Source: Alphaproteobacteria bacterium
GTDB taxonomy: Bacteria > Pseudomonadota > Alphaproteobacteria > Bin95
Assembly: GCA_965206075.1 (NCBI GenBank)
Contig: CBDBIS010000001.1
Location: forward strand, 12,928 to 76,927
Reading direction: 5' to 3'
Length of the DNA stretch: 64,000 nucleotides
Shown here one piece after another: positions 4,463 through 14,514 of this stretch. Within the stretch, counting starts at the first letter, position 1. Every line of letters starts with the position of its first letter. The notes under the pieces are model-generated. The model had not been told where the DNA came from, ran no database searches, and saw only the letters and a list, made by a program, of their open reading frames with translations. The position numbers and the translations under genes are program-made.

Positions 4463-5812
4463 TCAGAAGGCTGCGTCGCGTCCCTTGGCCCTGGCGAGCT
4501 CGCGGGCATTGGGGTTGACGGAGGGGCGGAACGGCATTTCGCAGACTTCCGCCGCCACGGGCCGTCCCGGCTCGTCGGCATAACGGTCCGGCAACCAGAC
4601 GGCATATTCGGTGCCGACACCCGACTTCTCCACCGGCACATAGCCCATGGAAATGTTGCAGCCGAGTTCGGGCGAGTACCAGGGCGAAGTGAGATAGCCC
4701 ACCGGCTCGCCGCCGCCCGGCTCCGACACCAGCCAGAAATCCGGCGCATAGTCGTCGATCGGCCTGCCGCCCATGCGCAGGCCGACCAGCTGCTGGCGCC
4801 AGGGCGGGTTTCCGGCCCCCAATTCCGCGCGCATCCGCTCCAGCGCCGCCTTGCCGATATAGTCGGCGGTCTTTTTGCGCGGCACCTGGTAGGCGAGGTT
4901 GCACTGGAAGGGATTGGTCTCGTGGTCCAGATCCTGGCCCCAGGAGAGGATGCCGGCCGCGATCCGGCGCTGGTGGCCCGGCGCAATCACCATAAGATTA
5001 TGCGCCTTGCCGGCTTCCAGCACTGCCTCCCACATGGCGTTGGCGTGGAGCGTGGCGTCGCGCAGGTAGATTTCGTAGCCCTTCTCGCCGGAGAAGCCGG
5101 TCTGAGAGATGACGACGGCGCAGCCGCCGACCTCCGCCTCCATGATTCCGTAGAACGGAATGTCGCGGACCGCCGGCCCCACCAGGTCGGCCATCAGCGC
5201 TTCCGACTTCGGTCCCTGGATCTGCACGGGGCAAACGTCGATCTCGTCGATCTCGACATTCATCCGCGCGCCGACATTCACGCCCTGCAGCCAGAACAGG
5301 ATGTCGCTGTCGGAAAGCGAGAACCAGAACTCGTCCTCCGCGAGCCTCAGCAGCACGGGATCGTTGAGGATGCCGCCCTTCTCGTTGCAGAGGATGACGT
5401 ATTTCCCGTGCATCGGCTGGATGCGGGCCGCATCGCGGGTGATGACGTAATTCACGAACCGCTCGGCATCCGGGCCCTTCACGCGGATCTGCCGCTCGAC
5501 CGCCACGTTCCACATGGTGACGTGTTTCGTGAGCGCCTCATATTCCACCGAGGCGCCGCCGTCCTCCGGGCGCACATAGCCGCGCGGGTGATAGACGCGG
5601 TTATAGACCGTCGCCCGCCAGCAGCCGGCCTCATGACTGAGATGCCAGTAGGGCGACTTGCGCACCCGCGTCGAGATCAGCAGTTCGGTCTTCGTCGGGC
5701 CGCTCTGGCGCAGGTTGTAGGGCACGACGCGGTCGGACTGGTCCACGCTCGTCGCCTGTTCCCTGCGATAGTGTGAAACGAGGCTGGGGGAATCGTCGAG
5801 GGGCATGGGCAT
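4463..5812 (-). CDS. Aminomethyltransferase (GcvT/DmdA-like, folate-binding) family protein
   Basis: GcvT-family signature over ~450 aa. Start refined to MPMPLDD, which has GGAGG 5 nt upstream; the upstream ORF extension looks non-coding. Confidence 0.78.
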   Translation of the reverse strand: MPMPLDDSPSLVSHYRREQATSVDQSDRVVPYNLRQSGPTKTELLISTRVRKSPYWHLSHEAGCWRATVYNRVYHPRGYVRPEDGGASVEYEALTKHVTMWNVAVERQIRVKGPDAERFVNYVITRDAARIQPMHGKYVILCNEKGGILNDPVLLRLAEDEFWFSLSDSDILFWLQGVNVGARMNVEIDEIDVCPVQIQGPKSEALMADLVGPAVRDIPFYGIMEAEVGGCAVVISQTGFSGEKGYEIYLRDATLHANAMWEAVLEAGKAHNLMVIAPGHQRRIAAGILSWGQDLDHETNPFQCNLAYQVPRKKTADYIGKAALERMRAELGAGNPPWRQQLVGLRMGGRPIDDYAPDFWLVSEPGGGEPVGYLTSPWYSPELGCNISMGYVPVEKSGVGTEYAVWLPDRYADEPGRPVAAEVCEMPFRPSVNPNARELARAKGRDAAF

Positions 5813-9386: not shown

Positions 9387-9416
9387 GCGCGCTCCGGACC
9401 GGCGCGTTACCGACGG

Positions 9417-9863
9417 CTATTGCTTCGGCATCGTTTCTGCGAGCGGCGCGACGCGGACCTCCACGGTCACGGCGCCGGCCTTCTCGAAGAGGAGCGTGAG
9501 CGGAAAGCTGCCGCCCGGTTTCAGTCGGCCCTTCAGGCCGAACAGCATCAAATGGTCGCCGCCGGGCTCCAGCGCGGCTTCGCCGCCGGCCGGCACATTG
9601 AGGGCTTCCACCCGGCGCATCATCACCACGCCGCCTTCGTGGATGTGGGTGTGAAGCTCGACGCGCTCCGCTGCCGGGCTTTCCGCACCGACCAGCCGGT
9701 CTTCGCCGCCGGCATTGCGGATCGTGAGCCAAGCGGCGCCCGGCCGGCTCGGCAGCAGGATACGCGCGCGGGCGTCCTCCACCGTCAGCGACCCGTCGGC
9801 CGAGGCCGGATCGATGCCGGCAAGGGAGGCGACAAGCGCCGCCGCAAGGGCGAACCGCAGCAT
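9417..9863 (-). CDS. Copper chaperone PCu(A)C (DUF461)
   Basis: Signal peptide plus H(x)nM motif region (ELHTHIHEGGVVMMRRV). Start ATG overlaps the stop of the upstream VWA gene (TGATG). Confidence 0.8.
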   Translation of the reverse strand: MLRFALAAALVASLAGIDPASADGSLTVEDARARILLPSRPGAAWLTIRNAGGEDRLVGAESPAAERVELHTHIHEGGVVMMRRVEALNVPAGGEAALEPGGDHLMLFGLKGRLKPGGSFPLTLLFEKAGAVTVEVRVAPLAETMPKQ

Positions 9864-11047
9864 CAGGCGGCGGTGAGCACCCTGAGGCCCCGGTCGAGGC
9901 CGTCGATAGAGAGCGGGAACATGCGGTTGGCCATGACCTCCTTGACGATCATCGTCGAGGGCGTGTGGTCCCAGCGGGTCTCGGGGCGCGGGTTCAGCCA
10001 GATCGAATTCGGCCACTGGTCCAGCATGCGCTGCGCCCAGAGCAGGCCCGGTTCCTCGTTCCAGTGCTCCACGGAGCCGCCCTTGTAGGTGATCTCGTAG
10101 GGACTCATGAAAGCGTCGCCGACGAAGATCACCTTGTAGTCCTTGGGATAGGTGTTGATGACATCCCAGGTCGGCGTGCGCTGCTCGTGCCGCCGGCGGT
10201 TGTCCCGCCACATATATTCGTAAGTGAAGTTGTGGAAATAGTAGTATTCGAGATGCTTGAACTCGGTACGCGCGGCCGAGAACAGCTCTTCGCAGACCCG
10301 GATATGGTCGTCCATCGAGCCGCCGACATCGAAGAACATCAGCACCTTGACGCGGTTGCGGCGCTCCGGGCGCATGACGATGTCGAGCAGCCCGCCATTA
10401 TGCGCGGTGCTGCGGATCGTTTCGTCGAGGTCGAGCTCGTCGTCCTCGCCCACCCGCGCGAACTCCCGCAGCCGCCTGAGCGCAAGCTGGATGTTGCGGA
10501 TGCCGATCTGGACGTCGTCGTCGTAGTTCTTGTATTCGCGCTTGTCCCATACCTTGAGCGCGCGGCCCTGCCGGCGGCGGCGCTGGCCGATGGCGACGCC
10601 TTCGGGGTTGTAGCCGCCCGTGCCGTAAGGCGAGGTCCCGGCGGTGCCGATCCAGCGGTTCCCGCCCTGATGACGCTCCTTCTGTTCCTCCAGCCGCTTG
10701 CGAAGCTCCTCCATGAGCTTCTCCCAGCCGCCCATGGCCTCGATGGCCGCCTTGTCCTCCTCGCTGAAATACTTCTCCGCCTGGAGCAACAGCCATTCTT
10801 CGGGAATGTCGTCACCGAATAGCGTCGCCGTCAGTTCTTCCACGCCCTTGAAGAACGTGCCGAACACGCGATCGTAGCGGTCGAAATATTTCTCGTCCTT
10901 CACCAGCGCAGAACGGGAGAGATAGTAGAAATCGTCGATATTGTACATCACGAGGCGCTTGTCCATCGCCTCGATCAGCATGAGGAACTCGCGGATCGTC
11001 GCCGGGATCTTCGCCTTCTTTACGTCGAAGAAGAAGTTGATGAGCAT
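9863..11047 (-). CDS. VWA domain protein, CoxE-like (partner of the MoxR ATPase)
   Basis: C-terminal VWA with MIDAS DxSGS (FFDVGGSMDDH). Start ATG overlaps the MoxR stop (ATGA). Confidence 0.85.
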   Translation of the reverse strand: MLINFFFDVKKAKIPATIREFLMLIEAMDKRLVMYNIDDFYYLSRSALVKDEKYFDRYDRVFGTFFKGVEELTATLFGDDIPEEWLLLQAEKYFSEEDKAAIEAMGGWEKLMEELRKRLEEQKERHQGGNRWIGTAGTSPYGTGGYNPEGVAIGQRRRRQGRALKVWDKREYKNYDDDVQIGIRNIQLALRRLREFARVGEDDELDLDETIRSTAHNGGLLDIVMRPERRNRVKVLMFFDVGGSMDDHIRVCEELFSAARTEFKHLEYYYFHNFTYEYMWRDNRRRHEQRTPTWDVINTYPKDYKVIFVGDAFMSPYEITYKGGSVEHWNEEPGLLWAQRMLDQWPNSIWLNPRPETRWDHTPSTMIVKEVMANRMFPLSIDGLDRGLRVLTAA

Positions 11048-11901
11048 CAGCGGCCCTCGCGTCTCGCCATGAAGATCAGGCGCTCGAACAGATGCACGTC
11101 CTGCTCGTTCTTCAACAGCGCGCCATAGAGCGGCGGGATGGACTTGTTGCCGTCCTTGCCGCGCAGGACCTCGGGCGGGATATCCTCCGCCATCAGCAGC
11201 TTCAGCCAGTCCAGGAGCTCGGAGGTGGAAGGCTTCTTCTTCAGGCCCGGAACCTCGCGCATCTGGAAGAAGGCTTCCATCGATTCCTTCACCAGATCCT
11301 TCTTGATGCCCGGATAGTGGACATCGACGATCTCCTGCATCGTCTCGGGGTCCGGGAAGCGGATATAGTGGAAGAAGCAGCGGCGCAGGAAAGCGTCCGG
11401 AAGCTCCTTTTCGTTGTTCGAGGTGATGATGACGATCGGGCGTACCTTCGCCTTGATCGTCTCCCCGGTTTCGTAAACGAAGAACTCCATGCGGTCGAGT
11501 TCCTGCAACAGATCGTTCGGGAACTCGATATCCGCCTTGTCGATCTCGTCGATCAGCAGGACGATCTTCTCGTCCGAAGTGAAGGCGTCCCAGAGCTTGC
11601 CGCGGTCGATATAGTTGGCGATGTCCTTCACCCGCTCATCGCCTAGCTGGCTGTCCCGCAGGCGCGACACCGCGTCATACTCGTACAGGCCGTGCTGGGC
11701 CTTGGTGGTGGACTTGATGTGCCAGGTGATGAGCCGCATGCCGAGCGCCGAGGCGACTTCCTCCGCGAGCATGGTCTTGCCGGTGCCGGGCTCTCCCTTG
11801 ACCAGCAGCGGCCGCTCCAGGGTGATGGAGGCGTTGACCGCCAGCATCAGGTCTTCGGTGGCCACATAGCTGTCGGTGCCGGTGAAACGCATCTCGCTCA
11901 T
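11047..11901 (-). CDS. MoxR-family AAA+ ATPase (CoxD-like)
   Basis: Walker A GEPGTGKT and Walker B LLIDEIDK. Start refined to MSEMRFTGTDSY. Confidence 0.88.
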   Translation of the reverse strand: MSEMRFTGTDSYVATEDLMLAVNASITLERPLLVKGEPGTGKTMLAEEVASALGMRLITWHIKSTTKAQHGLYEYDAVSRLRDSQLGDERVKDIANYIDRGKLWDAFTSDEKIVLLIDEIDKADIEFPNDLLQELDRMEFFVYETGETIKAKVRPIVIITSNNEKELPDAFLRRCFFHYIRFPDPETMQEIVDVHYPGIKKDLVKESMEAFFQMREVPGLKKKPSTSELLDWLKLLMAEDIPPEVLRGKDGNKSIPPLYGALLKNEQDVHLFERLIFMARREGR

Positions 11902-12082
11902 GGGGGCGCCTGTTTCCTCGTGTCTTGTCGCTCTCGCGGTCGGGCGGACCTTAAAGACGGTCTCGGTTCCAATCAAGGCGCGGCGCGGTGACGCGGGAGG
12001 GCGTCGCCCGGGGCCGGCCGGCGTTGAACGCTCCGCCCCGGTCGGCTAGAACCGGGCGGACGACAAGGGGAGGGTCCGGGCC

Positions 12083-12274
12083 GTGTGGGACAACGGGGTC
12101 GGCAAATATCTCTACGGGATGACGATGATCCTCTGCGCGGCGGGCTTCCTGTTCGTGGCGAGCCGGATGCACGGCGCGATGGAGTGGATCGCCTGGGCCG
12201 GCTTCCTCGGCTGCACGGCCTTCGTCTACTGGCTGATCGCGCACCACACGCGCGCGCCGCGCGGCAGGCACTGA
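12083..12274 (+). CDS. Small two-TM membrane protein (hypothetical; GTG start)
   Basis: 63-aa hydrophobic ORF with an AAGGGGAGGG purine tract ~10 nt upstream. No homology recognised. Confidence 0.3.
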   Translation: MWDNGVGKYLYGMTMILCAAGFLFVASRMHGAMEWIAWAGFLGCTAFVYWLIAHHTRAPRGRH

Positions 12275-12308
12275 GGCGGGCAGCGCGCCGATTGCGGGTT
12301 GGCCGCGG

Positions 12309-13181
12309 TTACGTTCCGTCGCCAACGCGGTGGCCGCCAGCTTTCGTGTAGCGACTGCCTTCCGGCCCGTATTCGGCAATCAGTCGGGCAATCATCTCGC
12401 GGTCGATGCCTTCGAATGAAGGCATACAGCCGCCCGGCTGCGGTACAACCCAGCGGCCTCCGCGCTCATCCACTCGCGAAATCACGACGAGCCCGTCGGA
12501 AGCGACCTGCAGCTGCCCGTAACGTCTTTCCGGAAGGGCGTCCAGGATCAGATGGGCTTCTCCGATGCTGGCCCGAAGTTCAGTACCCATGTTCTCCAGT
12601 GAGATATCGAAAGTCGCGTCATAGGTGTCTTCATCCCGCGCCCGGGCGAAGTGCCAGTTGCGCGATATCTCCTCCAGGAGCGACTGCGGACTGAAATCGG
12701 GGTCTTTGCCCGGCGCGGCGCACGCGCTCCTCCAAAGCGGAAGCACATGCCGGTCCAGCATCCACAGATCGATGAAGTCTCGCACGACCATGCGGTTGCC
12801 GGCGGCCAGCGCCTTGTTGACTGCCAGATCGGCGAAATGCAGGCGGAACCCGAACAACTCATCGGGAACGGGCCGATAGAATTCCCGGCTCAGCCCGTGA
12901 GTCCATTGCAGGACCGTCCTGCCGGCCGCCGGTTTGGATACGATACATTCCCTGAAACCGTCGCGGAGCCGTCCGGGAGAAACCGTGTAGCCGGCGCTTT
13001 CGAGCGTCGCGATGTCCCGCTCGGCAATGTCTTCCAGGTCCCAGCCTGTGAAGATGTCCTGATCGTTGCTCAGCCTGAAGCCGTGCTGTTGAATTACCGC
13101 GCCGCCGGCGAATGGACTCCCGGGGTCCCTGTTGGCGCTGAGAACGGCGGCGATGGCCTTCTGGAAATCATCGAGCGGCAT
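12309..13181 (-). CDS. Nucleotidyltransferase of the AbiEii/AbiGii (DUF1814) toxin family
   Basis: hGG-x8-RxSxDxDh motif (FAGGAVIQQHGFRLSNDQDIF). Second conserved block LAVNKALAAGNRMVVRDFIDLWML matches the AbiEii EK..A..R...RDlyDL signature. Confidence 0.65.
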   Translation of the reverse strand: MPLDDFQKAIAAVLSANRDPGSPFAGGAVIQQHGFRLSNDQDIFTGWDLEDIAERDIATLESAGYTVSPGRLRDGFRECIVSKPAAGRTVLQWTHGLSREFYRPVPDELFGFRLHFADLAVNKALAAGNRMVVRDFIDLWMLDRHVLPLWRSACAAPGKDPDFSPQSLLEEISRNWHFARARDEDTYDATFDISLENMGTELRASIGEAHLILDALPERRYGQLQVASDGLVVISRVDERGGRWVVPQPGGCMPSFEGIDREMIARLIAEYGPEGSRYTKAGGHRVGDGT

Positions 13182-13464
13182 CGCCGCTCTGCCGTTCGAC
13201 TTCGCGGAGGATAGCGGCCGCCAGGTGAGCGGCTTCACGGTCGCCGTAGAGGCGTAGTGACCGCGCTACCCCGCGCATCGCATTCAGCGTTGCGTCGCCC
13301 CGCCTGTTCCAGAGGGCCCGCAAGTCATACCTGTCCCATGCTTCCTTCCGGAGTGCCATCAGCCTGTCGCCGATATCGTCGTATTTCAGCGTCCGGCCCT
13401 GCTGCGCAGCACGCTCTTCGGCACGGCACGCAAAGCGTCCGTCAATGTCGGCAGCGGTTGTCAT
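13168..13464 (-). CDS. Small helical protein overlapping the AbiEii gene start by 14 nt; candidate cognate antitoxin/partner (hypothetical)
   Basis: 98-aa ORF (63 aa if the internal Met is used). Plausible CTGACA-17bp-TAGTCT promoter immediately upstream. No recognisable domain. Confidence 0.4.
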   Translation of the reverse strand: MTTAADIDGRFACRAEERAAQQGRTLKYDDIGDRLMALRKEAWDRYDLRALWNRRGDATLNAMRGVARSLRLYGDREAAHLAAAILREVERQSGDAAR

Positions 13465-13580
13465 ATCGCTTCATCCGGCATGAGCCGCCAGACTATATGA
13501 GGCTTCAAGAGATGTCAGCGCAGGCGTCCCGGTCGAAGGGGCTGCTTCTCCCTGAAAAATTTCGCTTGGCGGCGCTGCAC

Positions 13581-13994
13581 TCAGGGCGATTTGCGCGGAT
13601 CGCCGCCGGGCGCGCCCAGGCTGTCGATAATCGGGCAGTCCGGCCGGTCGTCGCCCCGGCAGGCATCGACGAGATGAGCGAGCTCGTCGTGCAGCGACTG
13701 GAGTTCGCGCTGCTTCTTCGCAATGTCCTCCAGGCGCGCCGTTGCGATGCGCTTGACGTCCGCGCTGGAGCGCCGGCGGTCCTCGTAGAGGCCGAGCAGC
13801 TCCCGGCATTCCGAGATCGAAAACCCGAACTCCCGCGCCCGGCGCACGAAGATGAGCTTCCGCACCGAGGCGCCGTCATAGCTCCGGTAGCCCGATTCCG
13901 ACCGCGCCGGGGCGGGCACCAGTCCGATATCGGCGTAGTAGCGCACCGTCTTGGCCGGCAGGTCTGCGGCTTTCGAGGCGGCGGAAATGTTCAT
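13581..13994 (-). CDS. cueR: MerR-family Cu(I)-responsive regulator (CueR/HmrR-like)
   Basis: N-terminal MerR HTH (AKTVRYYADIGLV). C-terminal metal-binding C-x8-C (CRGDDRPDC). Confidence 0.85.
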   Translation of the reverse strand: MNISAASKAADLPAKTVRYYADIGLVPAPARSESGYRSYDGASVRKLIFVRRAREFGFSISECRELLGLYEDRRRSSADVKRIATARLEDIAKKQRELQSLHDELAHLVDACRGDDRPDCPIIDSLGAPGGDPRKSP

Positions 13995-14006
13995 GGGCCC
14001 AGGCGC

Positions 14007-14037
14007 TTGACCTTCCAGTAACTGGAAACATTATCTT
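14007..14037 (+). promoter_or_regulatory. CueR-type operator/promoter: TTGACC - 19-bp spacer containing the perfect palindrome TTCCAGtaaCTGGAA - TATCTT
   Basis: MerR-type promoter with a 19-bp spacer. The dyad matches the CueR box consensus (CCTTCC-N7-GGAAGG). Sits between divergent cueR and the DUF4396 gene. Confidence 0.7.
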
Positions 14038-14067
14038 GCCGTTAAGGACGAGGCAAGAGGCATCGCC

Positions 14068-14514
14068 ATGGTCGCCATAGCTGCAAATTTCGCCATAGAC
14101 TGGCGCTGCCGCCACACTTGGCGGCGGGCCTCGAAGAATACGGCCTGGTGCCTGCTCGGCTGCGCCATCGGCGACCTGGGCACCATCGCCTTCTTCCAGT
14201 TCACCGGCATTCCCTGGCCGACCATGGCGATCATGATCCTCGCCATCGTGAACGGCCTGCTGACCTCCATCGCGCTGGAAACCTTCATTCTCTCCCGCCA
14301 GATGGACTTGGCGACGGCGTTCCGGACGGCCATCGGCATGTCGTTCATCTCCATGATCGCCATGGAAGCCATGATGAACGCGGTGGACTGGGCGCTGACC
14401 GGCGGCGCCGTGCTGACATGGTGGGTCGTGCCGCTCATGCTGGCTGCCGGCTTCGTCACGCCGCTTCCCTACAATTACTGGCGGCTGAAGGCGCTCGGGA
14501 AAGCCTGCCACTGA
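14068..14514 (+). CDS. DUF4396 family membrane protein (commonly Cu-regulon associated)
   Basis: Multi-TM sequence with the characteristic C-rich N-terminus. Lies downstream of the CueR-box promoter. Confidence 0.78.
   Translation: MVAIAANFAIDWRCRHTWRRASKNTAWCLLGCAIGDLGTIAFFQFTGIPWPTMAIMILAIVNGLLTSIALETFILSRQMDLATAFRTAIGMSFISMIAMEAMMNAVDWALTGGAVLTWWVVPLMLAAGFVTPLPYNYWRLKALGKACH

What the first reader, a model, noticed from the sequence alone, without database searches (positions are those of the whole stretch)
12309..13464. AbiEii/DUF1814 nucleotidyltransferase with a short non-canonical upstream partner: candidate type IV TA / abortive-infection module
The 290-aa protein carries both AbiEii signatures: GG-x8-RxSxDxDh, and the LAVNKALAAGNRMVVRDFIDLWML block. 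Canonical AbiEi antitoxins are ~200-300 aa wHTH proteins. Here the only upstream co-oriented gene, overlapping by 14 nt, encodes a 63-98-aa helical protein with no recognisable HTH. A plausible promoter, CTGACA-17-TAGTCT, sits immediately upstream. The pair lies between the MoxR-VWA-PCu(A)C operon and cueR and looks like an insertion into the copper locus. A small two-TM ORF on the opposite strand (12083-12274) lies just downstream.
Basis: partly seen in the sequence, partly recalled or inferred. Interest (0 to 1): 0.65.

Follow-up and report, generated by a model that had tools for sequence, protein, structure and literature searches.

The report
MenT/AbiEii-like toxin with unannotated small partner
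This is a two-gene cassette: a nucleotidyltransferase of the MenT/AbiEii toxin superfamily, and just upstream a small helical protein from an unannotated family that always travels with it and is most likely its antitoxin, so it is a new partner for a known kind of system rather than a new kind.

Summary
Window 12309-13181(-) encodes a 290-aa protein and 13168-13464(-) a 98-aa protein, overlapping by 14 nt.

**The large protein.** It misses Pfam AbiEii on its own (13.1 bits against a cut-off of 22.5). However, 25 of 44 relatives hit it. All four AbiEii/DUF1814 motifs are present and nearly invariant. A confident AlphaFold model (pLDDT 91.6) matches only MenT3, MenT4, MenT1 and JHP933 among solved structures. 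The Ser/Thr that is auto-phosphorylated in MenT3, MenT1 and AbiEii is conserved (S38; 102 of 108 relatives).

**The small protein.**
- It is real: substitutions fall mainly on third codon positions.
- It lies directly upstream, overlapping by 11-14 nt, in 40 of 48 species-representative loci (3 more overlap by 35 nt or sit 3-8 nt upstream).
- It co-diverges with the enzyme (r = 0.91).
- It is a confident four-helix protein with no match in Pfam, NCBIfam, PADLOC, PHROGs or the PDB.
- Its ~60-aa core also occurs alone, or fused to an XRE HTH or other N-terminal domains, as antitoxins typically are.

**Other points.** The "type IV" label is untested and is being revised for this superfamily. Insertion into the copper locus is not shown. 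The 2-TM ORF shows no coding signal.

**Verdict:** a new variant of a known kind, of moderate interest.

The parts
13168..13464 (-). Partner gene, 98 aa: predicted antitoxin. Four-helix protein (H14-22, H33-50, H60-73, H76-97). The conserved core is roughly residues 33-93.
   Evidence: ORF. Third-codon-position bias against L001/L002. Family alignments A2-A4. AlphaFold pLDDT 89.4, pTM 0.82. No Pfam, NCBIfam, PADLOC or PHROGs hit. No PDB fold or sequence match. 459 clusters at 50% identity in the exhaustive search.
12309..13181 (-). NTase gene, 290 aa: predicted toxin of the DUF1814/AbiEii/MenT superfamily.
   Evidence: ORF. Family of at least 131 proteins. 25 of 44 members hit PF08843. AlphaFold pLDDT 91.6, pTM 0.90. 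Foldseek top 11 hits are all MenT3, MenT4, JHP933 or MenT1.
13168..13181 (-). 14-nt overlap of the partner's stop codon with the NTase start (ATGCCGCTCGATGA): translational coupling.
   Evidence: Read directly from the sequence. The overlap is 11 or 14 nt in 40 of the 43 related loci that carry the partner.
13056..13106 (-). Codons for motifs I and II: G26-G27 ... R36-L-S38-N-D40-Q-D42. S38 (13068-13070) is the position of the phospho-acceptor in MenT3 (S78), MenT1 (T39) and AbiEii (T65).
   Evidence: Conservation in 108 relatives: G26 97, G27 99, R36 103, S/T38 102, D40 103, D42 104. Motif definition from PMC3985639. Phospho-acceptor from PMC11375011 and bioRxiv 10.64898/2026.01.19.700257.
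12768..12830 (-). Codons for motifs III and IV: D118-L-A-V-N122-K123-A-L-A-A-G-N-R130 ... R134-D135-F-I-D138.
   Evidence: K123 107 of 108, R130 105, R134 106, D135 107, D138 107. This stretch is the window protein's only Pfam AbiEii match (residues 115-145).
13478..13518 (-). Promoter-like region upstream of the partner gene: CTGACA (13518-13513) and the conserved block AAGCCTCATATAGTCTGGCGGCTCATGC (13505-13478), which contains TATAGT (13497-13492).
   Evidence: Alignment with L001 and L002: the block is conserved and the -35 is not. Not called by the consensus scan. Function inferred only.

Best explanation
This is a self-contained, horizontally mobile, two-gene toxin-antitoxin-like cassette.

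**Downstream gene.** It encodes a Pol-beta-type nucleotidyltransferase of the DUF1814/AbiEii/MenT superfamily. By analogy with MenT1, MenT3, MenT4 and AbiEii, it most likely adds nucleotides to the 3' CCA end of tRNAs and so stops translation. This step is inferred.

**Upstream gene.** It is translationally coupled and encodes a 98-aa four-helix protein from an unannotated family that acts as the cognate antitoxin by binding the enzyme directly (inferred). The enzyme keeps a Ser/Thr two residues before the first catalytic Asp (S38). Binding could therefore neutralise it by triggering auto-phosphorylation there, as unrelated antitoxins do for MenT1, MenT3 and AbiEii. Simple sequestration is the alternative (inferred).

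**What is shown.** The fold and all catalytic motifs of the enzyme; that the small gene is real; strict adjacency, overlap and co-divergence of the two genes; movement of the pair as a unit between unrelated contexts; and the modular make-up of the partner (core alone, or core plus various N-terminal domains, some DNA-binding).

**Regulation.** The window's partner has no DNA-binding domain, so on its own it probably does not autoregulate the operon, like MenA1.
For: **Enzyme.**
- All four motifs defined for AbiEii/DUF1814 (PMC3985639) are present with matching spacing and are nearly invariant in 108 relatives.
- 25 of 44 family members hit PF08843.
- More distant plasmid-borne members pass the cut-off, and one is annotated in RefSeq as AbiEii/AbiGii toxin family.
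- The model (pLDDT 91.6) has MenT3/TglT, MenT4, JHP933 and MenT1 as its only hits with E <= 0.001.
- The S38 position is S or T in 102 of 108 relatives.

**Pairing.**
- A partner homologue lies directly upstream on the same strand in 43 of 48 species-representative loci, overlapping by 11-14 nt in 40 of them.
- Of the other 5 loci, one is cut by a contig end, three have a truncated or split NTase gene, and one (L016) has lost most of the partner gene.
- The identity matrices of partner core and NTase correlate at r = 0.914, with 0 of 2000 Mantel permutations reaching that value.
- One database protein (P0323, 481 aa) carries both in a single ORF.

**Mobility.**
- Apart from the two syntenic close relatives, only window 12346-13445, i.e. 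the two genes, is shared with other loci.
- Several genomes hold two diverged copies.
- Copies lie beside transposases and on plasmids.
- Decayed copies exist.

**Partner architecture typical of antitoxins.**
- The ~60-aa core occurs alone (62-90 aa), with the window's N-terminal extension, and with a GLVRVEVLVP-type N-domain.
- It also occurs fused to an XRE HTH (Pfam HTH_3, E 7e-15 to 2.8e-17), and once to an AbiEi-like N-terminus (weak DUF6088 hit).
Against: - Nothing was tested functionally: no toxicity, rescue, binding, NTase activity or phosphorylation data exist for any member of this clade.
- The window's own protein is below Pfam's AbiEii cut-off and has no PADLOC hit.
- Structural similarity to the MenT proteins is moderate (TM 0.43-0.51).
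- L016 keeps an apparently intact NTase gene without a partner gene. That is awkward for a potent toxin, unless the paralogous pair in the same genome (L021) covers for it.
- No phage or viral contig carries the family, and the window's neighbours are housekeeping copper genes, so a defence role has no support from context.
Confidence: 0.72

Rival explanations
1. This is an abortive-infection or phage-defence module rather than, or as well as, an addiction or stress toxin-antitoxin pair. The pair stays silent until a phage cue releases the NTase, as described for lactococcal AbiE.
For: AbiE, the founding member of the superfamily, gives phage resistance (PMC3985639). Some copies lie in variable islands beside a second AbiEii pair, a DNA methylase or a Uma2 nuclease-like gene.
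Against: PADLOC defence models do not recognise either protein. No recognised defence genes were seen among the annotated neighbours in the closest relative of the window. There is no link to phages or prophages in IMG/VR or GenBank phages. MenT systems of the same superfamily have no shown defence role.
Confidence: 0.3
2. The NTase is not a toxin. It is a benign modifying enzyme, for example of a small molecule as with ANT(2'')-Ia, or of an RNA or protein. The small protein is then a specificity or regulatory subunit.
For: The DUF1814 superfamily also holds non-toxin members such as ANT(2'')-Ia and Pb27. L016 carries the NTase without its partner. MenT2 had no detectable activity.
Against: - The best structural matches are toxins (MenT1/3/4) and JHP933, not ANT(2'')-Ia.
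- The organisation is that of a toxin-antitoxin pair: partner first, 11-14 nt overlap, mobile as a unit, several diverged copies per genome, frequent decay, and the partner fused to DNA-binding domains.
- The phospho-acceptor Ser/Thr used to switch off the toxins is conserved.
Confidence: 0.13
3. The roles are reversed, as in HEPN-MNT systems: the small helical protein is the toxin, and the NTase is the antitoxin that modifies it.
For: In HEPN/MNT pairs the nucleotidyltransferase is the antitoxin and the small helical protein is the toxin (PMC7641770, listed).
Against: - The partner has no invariant Arg or His that could form the HEPN Rx4-6H motif. Its invariant residues are A42, G74 and A78.
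- It has no HEPN or other nuclease fold match.
- It is found fused to XRE HTH domains, which is typical of antitoxins.
- The NTase belongs to the DUF1814 toxins, not to MNT.
Confidence: 0.04

Closest known systems
MenAT1 of Mycobacterium tuberculosis (MenT1 Rv0078A with the small antitoxin MenA1 Rv0078B; PDB 8AN4/8AN5)
   Same: A DUF1814 NTase toxin preceded by a short antitoxin that has no DNA-binding domain. The toxin has a hydroxyl residue two positions before the first catalytic Asp (T39 in MenT1, S38 here). MenT1 is among the significant fold matches.
MenAT3/TakA-TglT (Rv1044-Rv1045) and MenAT4 (Rv2827c-Rv2826c)
   Same: These are the best structural matches, spanning nearly the whole length (263-270 aligned columns, E 9e-6 to 6e-5, TM 0.43-0.51). 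The motif-II layout R-x-S-x-D-x-D is the same as MenT3's R76/S78/D80/D82.
   Different: Sequence identity is 11-14%. Their antitoxins are AbiEi-like (COG5340) proteins (wHTH plus C-terminal domain per PMC3985639), while the partner here is a 98-aa helical protein with no wHTH.
AbiEi-AbiEii of Streptococcus agalactiae / Lactococcus lactis (Pfam PF08843; COG5340 antitoxin)
   Same: A bicistronic operon with the antitoxin first. All four NTase motifs are present, and the phospho-acceptor position is conserved (T65 in AbiEii).
   Different: The window protein is below the PF08843 cut-off and is missed by PADLOC. The G-to-D spacing is 12 residues here against 15 reported for AbiEii. The partner lacks the AbiEi wHTH and C-terminal domain. 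No phage-defence evidence exists.
Type II antitoxins built as a DNA-binding domain plus a toxin-binding domain (XRE-HTH or RHH fused to a neutralising domain)
   Same: Within the partner family the conserved core is joined to different N-terminal domains: an XRE HTH (Pfam-supported), a GLVRVEVLVP-type domain and an AbiEi-like N-terminus (neither confirmed as DNA-binding).
   Different: The window's copy, and most Paracoccaceae copies, carry no DNA-binding domain at all. The core domain has no match to any known antitoxin family.

Membership tests
DUF1814 / AbiEii / MenT nucleotidyltransferase toxins (Pfam PF08843) | Match to the PF08843 profile above the gathering score (22.5 bits) | tested here: inconclusive
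   The window protein scores 13.1 bits, E 0.09, over residues 115-145 only. In contrast, 25 of 44 close relatives match with E <= 0.01, best 1.1e-7. More distant plasmid members score 25.5-27 bits.
DUF1814 / AbiEii / MenT nucleotidyltransferase toxins (Pfam PF08843) | Motifs I and II: hG[G/S], a spacer, then R-x-x-x-D-h-D (the Pol-beta catalytic core with the family-specific Arg) | tested here: met
   A-G26-G27, then R36-L-S-N-D40-Q-D42-I. Conserved in 97-104 of 108 relatives. Definition from PMC3985639.
DUF1814 / AbiEii / MenT nucleotidyltransferase toxins (Pfam PF08843) | Motif III: a Lys in a hydrophobic setting, followed by Arg seven residues on (KLxAaxxR type) | tested here: met
   N122-K123-A-L-A-A-G-N-R130. 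K is conserved in 107 of 108 and R in 105 of 108.
DUF1814 / AbiEii / MenT nucleotidyltransferase toxins (Pfam PF08843) | Motif IV: the +DxxD pentad | tested here: met
   R134-D135-F-I-D138, conserved in 106, 107 and 107 of 108.
DUF1814 / AbiEii / MenT nucleotidyltransferase toxins (Pfam PF08843) | MenT-type fold | tested here: met
   The model has pLDDT 91.6. All 11 PDB hits with E <= 0.001 are MenT3/TglT, MenT4, JHP933 or MenT1, with TM 0.31-0.51.
DUF1814 / AbiEii / MenT nucleotidyltransferase toxins (Pfam PF08843) | Ser/Thr phospho-acceptor two residues before the first catalytic Asp (MenT3 S78, MenT1 T39, AbiEii T65) | tested here: met
   S38; the position is S in 77 and T in 25 of 108 relatives. 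Only residue conservation was tested, not phosphorylation.
DUF1814 / AbiEii / MenT nucleotidyltransferase toxins (Pfam PF08843) | Growth inhibition when expressed alone; nucleotide transfer to tRNA 3' ends | not testable with these tools
   Needs expression and biochemical assays.
AbiEi (COG5340) antitoxins | N-terminal winged HTH plus C-terminal domain | tested here: not met
MenA1-type small antitoxins | Sequence or fold relationship to MenA1 (PDB 8AN5) | tested here: not met
Toxin-antitoxin operon (generic, types II/IV/VII) | Two co-oriented, coupled genes that are inherited together and move as a unit | tested here: met
   The partner is adjacent in 43 of 48 loci, overlapping by 11-14 nt in 40 of them. 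Co-divergence r = 0.914. Only the two genes are shared between unrelated contexts. Several genomes hold two diverged copies. Copies occur on plasmids.
Toxin-antitoxin operon (generic, types II/IV/VII) | The antitoxin neutralises the toxin (rescue), by binding, by target protection or by modification | not testable with these tools
A single-ORF fusion (P0323) hints at physical association.
HEPN-MNT (toxin = small helical RNase, antitoxin = NTase) | Rx4-6H motif and HEPN fold in the small protein | tested here: not met
   No invariant R or H in 59 partners. No HEPN match by fold.

The most novel reading that the evidence does not exclude
The ~60-aa three-helix core of the partner is a new, structurally unrelated class of DUF1814 antitoxin. 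It would join AbiEi/MenA3, MenA1 and the remaining MenA family. It would switch its toxin off by inducing auto-phosphorylation at S38, which would make it an independent test of the proposed universal "antitoxin-induced auto-phosphorylation" (type VII) mechanism. The core is also a portable neutralising domain that evolution has joined to at least four different N-terminal domains.
Probability: 0.3. Interest if true: 0.6.

Novelty: new variant of a known kind. Interest (0 to 1): 0.45.

Why it matters
[quoted passage not shown] Whether all of them act by making the toxin phosphorylate itself is still open.

**What this clade adds.** It offers another unrelated, very small partner, and the toxin keeps the phospho-acceptor residue. 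It occurs in culturable alphaproteobacteria: Cereibacter sphaeroides 2.4.1 plasmid c, and Rhizobium, Bradyrhizobium and Afipia isolates. That makes the idea directly testable.

**Annotation gap.** The clade is invisible to PADLOC. Pfam sees only part of it. The partner, with 459 clusters at 50% identity, has no family model at all, so these cassettes are currently annotated as pairs of hypothetical proteins.

Tried and rejected
- **Exact-sequence look-ups.** The window's NTase and CueR are not on record, so the window's own genome is not in that collection.
- **Empty-site search.** A metagenome scan with CueR gave 80 loci. The closest (L051 at 84%, L052 at 77%) keep DUF4396-cueR but have unrelated genes downstream and no MoxR. 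Neither an insertion nor an ancestral state can be shown.
- **Insertion scars.** No flanking direct or inverted repeats around the pair. GC content is unremarkable, 0.62-0.65 against 0.55-0.72 nearby.
- **Phage link.** No relative in IMG/VR or GenBank phages. No PHROGs hit.
- **Profile of the NTase family against PDB sequences.** No MenT hit at E <= 10. The relationship shows only by fold and by Pfam at family level.
- **Partner.** No PDB sequence match and no fold match. The afdb50 library was not available.
- **RHH idea.** The GLVRVEVLVP N-domain of the Rhizobiales partners looks like a ribbon-helix-helix by pattern, but Pfam gave no RHH hit. It stays a guess. The same applies to the RFxCRAE stretch of the window's partner, which the model shows as mostly coil plus a short helix.
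- **L016.** I guessed that the sequence replacing the partner gene was an IS256-type transposase. Pfam found nothing, so the guess is dropped.
- **Regulatory elements.** No Rfam family in 11500-14200. No convincing operator repeat upstream of the partner gene.
- **Nearby AbiEii pair in L142.** Its 121-aa partner is unrelated to this partner family.
Full report
**1. What is in the sequence**

On the minus strand, window 13168-13464 encodes a 98-aa protein and 12309-13181 a 290-aa protein. The 309-aa GTG-started version from the ORF list is not the real one: every relative begins MPLD at the ATG. The two genes overlap by 14 nt (ATGCCGCTCGATGA).

Upstream on the same strand is a MerR/CueR-type regulator (Pfam MerR-DNA-bind, 4.5e-20). 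Downstream are MoxR-like AAA, VWA_CoxE and PCuAC (LpqE-like) genes. These were identified through the precomputed Pfam labels of the syntenic relative L131.

Both genes are genuine coding sequences. Against the two syntenic relatives, substitutions concentrate on third codon positions: small gene 4/4/17 and 10/11/29, large gene 17/17/56 and 26/21/93.

**2. The large protein**

Scanned alone, it fails Pfam AbiEii (13.1 bits against a cut-off of 22.5, residues 115-145 only). It has no PADLOC or meaningful NCBIfam hit.

- *Family level.* The protein has at least 131 relatives. Of 44 aligned members, 25 hit PF08843, best E 1.1e-7, and no other family is hit. More distant plasmid-borne members reach 25.5-27 bits, and one is annotated in RefSeq as "nucleotidyl transferase AbiEii/AbiGii toxin family protein".
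- *Motifs.* The four motifs that define AbiEii/DUF1814 (Dy et al. 2014, PMC3985639) are all present with the right spacing:
  - G26-G27;
  - R36-x-S38-x-D40-x-D42;
  - K123-x6-R130;
  - R134-D135-x-x-D138.

  In 108 full-length relatives these positions are conserved in 97-107 sequences.
- *Fold.* An AlphaFold model built on the family alignment is confident (pLDDT 91.6, pTM 0.90). Against 350,542 PDB chains, its only hits with E <= 0.001 are MenT3/TglT, MenT4, H. pylori JHP933 and MenT1. The MenT3 and MenT4 matches span 263-270 aligned columns; TM is 0.43-0.51 for MenT3, MenT4 and JHP933 and 0.31-0.34 for MenT1.

A family profile searched against PDB sequences finds nothing. This is therefore a divergent branch, visible by fold and motifs rather than by simple sequence search.

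Position 38, two residues before the first catalytic Asp, is Ser in 77 and Thr in 25 of 108 relatives. This is the position of MenT3 S78, MenT1 T39 and AbiEii T65. Those residues become auto-phosphorylated when the antitoxin binds, which switches the toxins off (PMC11375011; bioRxiv 10.64898/2026.01.19.700257).

**3. The small protein**

A single-sequence search finds 11 relatives, several on contigs of the same length as contigs carrying NTase hits.

A scan of one genome per species with the NTase alignment returned 48 loci. They come from Paracoccaceae and other Rhodobacterales MAGs, Bradyrhizobium, Afipia, Roseomonas, Rhizobium and Agrobacterium. A profile of the small protein finds a homologue immediately upstream on the same strand in 43 of them. 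In 40 of these the overlap is 11 or 14 nt; in L047 it is 35 nt, and in L046 and L048 the two genes are 3-8 nt apart.

The five exceptions are informative:

| Locus | State |
|---|---|
| L035 | cut by the contig end |
| L040 | NTase gene split near residue 33-37 by about 4.8 kb carrying an IS110-like transposase |
| L043, L045 | truncated NTase genes |
| L016 | intact NTase, but all except the last ~15 codons of the partner gene replaced |

Across 42 pairs, the pairwise identity of the partner core tracks that of the NTase (r = 0.914; none of 2000 Mantel permutations reaches it). The two genes therefore diverge together rather than being reshuffled.

An exhaustive profile search of 1.84 billion representative proteins finds 459 clusters at E <= 0.001 and 123 at E <= 1e-10.

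**4. Architecture of the partner family**

The conserved part is a ~60-aa core (window residues ~33-93) with the signature A-x3-[FY] ... LWN ... L-x3-GD-x2-A-x2-LA. The table lists the forms in which it occurs.

| Form | Size | Where |
|---|---|---|
| Core alone | 62-90 aa | the 77-aa partner of P0111; the 72-aa protein on C. sphaeroides 2.4.1 plasmid c |
| Core plus N-terminal extension (RFxCxAExRA...) | 98 aa | the window and most Paracoccaceae copies |
| Core plus GLVRVEVLVP-type N-domain | ~111 aa | Rhizobiales; the same N-domain also heads 163-aa proteins with a different C-terminal half, so it is a separate module |
| Core plus XRE-family HTH | ~188 aa | Pfam HTH_3, 7e-15 to 2.8e-17 |
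| Core plus N-terminus resembling AbiEi-type wHTH proteins | 230 aa | one protein, P0269; weak DUF6088 hit, E 0.0062 |

A constant domain joined to interchangeable N-terminal domains (only the XRE HTH is confirmed as DNA-binding), placed first in the operon, is the usual build of an antitoxin.

One database protein (P0323, 481 aa) has the partner and the NTase in one reading frame. Two others (P0332, P0248) are partner-plus-NTase-remnant deletions.

**5. Mobility and context**

The two closest genomes (L001 at 91% and L002 at 87% DNA identity) are collinear with the window from 8680 to beyond 19000 and carry the pair at the same place. All other loci share only window 12346-13445, that is, the two genes.

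- Five assemblies each yielded two diverged copies among the 48 loci (L001+L004, L009+L023, L016+L021, L018+L020, L026+L034).
- Other copies lie next to transposases, a DNA methylase, a second Pfam-positive AbiEii gene with an unrelated 121-aa partner, or a prophage-like stretch.
- Twelve plasmid records carry the family.
- No phage or viral contig does.

I could not find a relative with an empty site. The nearest other cueR loci have different genes downstream, no flanking repeats mark an insertion, and GC content is unremarkable. "A mobile two-gene cassette" is supported. "Inserted into the copper locus" is plausible but not shown.

**6. Promoter**

In L002 the -35 is not conserved, whereas the block CTCATATA(G/A)TCTGGCGG is. 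That block holds a better -10: TATAGT, reading TATAAT in L002.

Many Paracoccaceae copies carry CTTCAAT-N17-CTATATT, with the -10 box only ~6 nt from the ATG, which suggests leaderless transcripts.

There is no terminator-like site between cueR and the partner gene, so read-through from cueR is not excluded.

**7. Mechanism**

*Shown:* a MenT-fold NTase with an intact active site; a real, co-inherited, translationally coupled small partner with antitoxin-like modularity; and movement of the pair as a unit.

*Inferred from the characterised relatives:* the enzyme adds nucleotides to tRNA 3' ends and arrests translation. The partner binds it and neutralises it, either by sequestration or by inducing auto-phosphorylation of S38.

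The window's partner lacks a DNA-binding domain. It probably does not autoregulate by itself, as reported for MenA1.

**8. Rivals**

- *Phage-defence (Abi) role.* It is compatible with the above but has no contextual support.
- *Benign NTase with a regulatory subunit.* The toxin-antitoxin-like population genetics of the pair and the toxin-only structural matches make this unlikely.
- *Reversed roles, as in HEPN-MNT.* This is rejected. The partner has no Rx4-6H motif or HEPN fold, and it is the member that gets fused to HTH domains.

**9. Comparison and novelty**

The system works like MenAT/AbiE. The NTase passes the motif and fold tests for DUF1814 membership, but as a divergent clade that Pfam only partly recognises and PADLOC misses. 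The partner fails the membership tests for AbiEi and for MenA1, and it belongs to an unannotated family.

Short partners of DUF1814 toxins without a DNA-binding domain are already known (MenA1), and the antitoxins of this superfamily are known to be diverse. This is therefore a new variant of a known kind, not a new kind.

Its value is as an additional, very small and unrelated antitoxin class with which to test the proposed general auto-phosphorylation mechanism, and as a gap in current annotation.

Noticed in passing
Its DNA is 92-94% identical in L001/L002, more conserved than the flanking genes. Substitutions by codon position are 4/5/2 and 3/6/7, so there is no coding signal. The Phage_holin_2 hit is below cut-off (16.9 against 32 bits). 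It is not part of the mobile pair. The conserved stretch may instead belong to the leader or promoter of the MoxR operon.
   Followed up: partly
L016 5232-6897: A Paracoccaceae genome keeps an apparently intact NTase gene with all motifs, while all but the last ~15 codons of the partner gene are replaced by unrelated sequence. The same genome holds a second pair (L021). This is either cross-protection or a silent toxin.
   Followed up: partly
L040 769-1195 and 5962-6801: The NTase gene is split near residue 33-37 by about 4.8 kb that encodes an IS110-like transposase (Pfam DEDD_Tnp_IS110, E 6e-6, below cut-off). The partner and the first 37 codons of the NTase remain upstream.
   Followed up: partly
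P0323 (481 aa), P0332 (295 aa), P0248 (204 aa): Database proteins in which the partner and the NTase are in one reading frame (P0323), or the partner is joined to only the C-terminal part of the NTase (P0332, P0248). They could be true fusions or deletions, or assembly frameshifts.
   Followed up: no
L010, L012-L015, L018, L020, L021: the ~45 nt before the partner ATG (about 5670-5715 in most): Paracoccaceae copies share CTTCAAT-N17-CTATATT followed by ~6 nt and the ATG. This is a promoter whose -10 box sits so close to the start codon that the mRNA would be leaderless.
   Followed up: no
L142 8504-10509: A second, Pfam-positive AbiEii gene (240 aa, E 7.9e-10) begins about 1.9 kb past the end of the pair, preceded by its 121-aa partner. 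That partner is unrelated to the family studied here, and a 134-aa duplicate of it lies further upstream. DUF1814 toxins with yet other short partners therefore exist.
   Followed up: partly
L140 7001-11725 (Roseomonas vinacea) and window 9400-14000: In two unrelated contexts the pair lies beside metal-homeostasis genes: cueR and PCuAC in the window, and a CsoR/RcnR-type repressor plus a P-type ATPase in Roseomonas. This may be chance, or may reflect metal-resistance islands being mobile.
   Followed up: no
P0345, P0229 (163 aa): The GLVRVEVLVP-type N-terminal domain of the Rhizobiales partners also heads 163-aa proteins with a different C-terminal half. It is thus an independent, probably DNA-binding, module. 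It looks like a ribbon-helix-helix by pattern, but Pfam does not confirm that.
   Followed up: partly
L137 2780-3777 (Cereibacter sphaeroides 2.4.1 plasmid c): A model organism carries a diverged copy: a 72-aa partner (WP_017140498.1) and a 259-aa NTase (WP_011331406.1), both annotated as hypothetical. In this copy the second motif-II Asp appears to be Thr, so it may be inactive.
   Followed up: partly
window 13168-13181 and the equivalent sites in L001-L048: The partner's stop codon is built from the NTase codons for L3-D4 (11-nt overlap) or D4 plus the next codon (14-nt overlap). The invariance of the NTase N-terminus MPLD may partly reflect this overlap.
   Followed up: no
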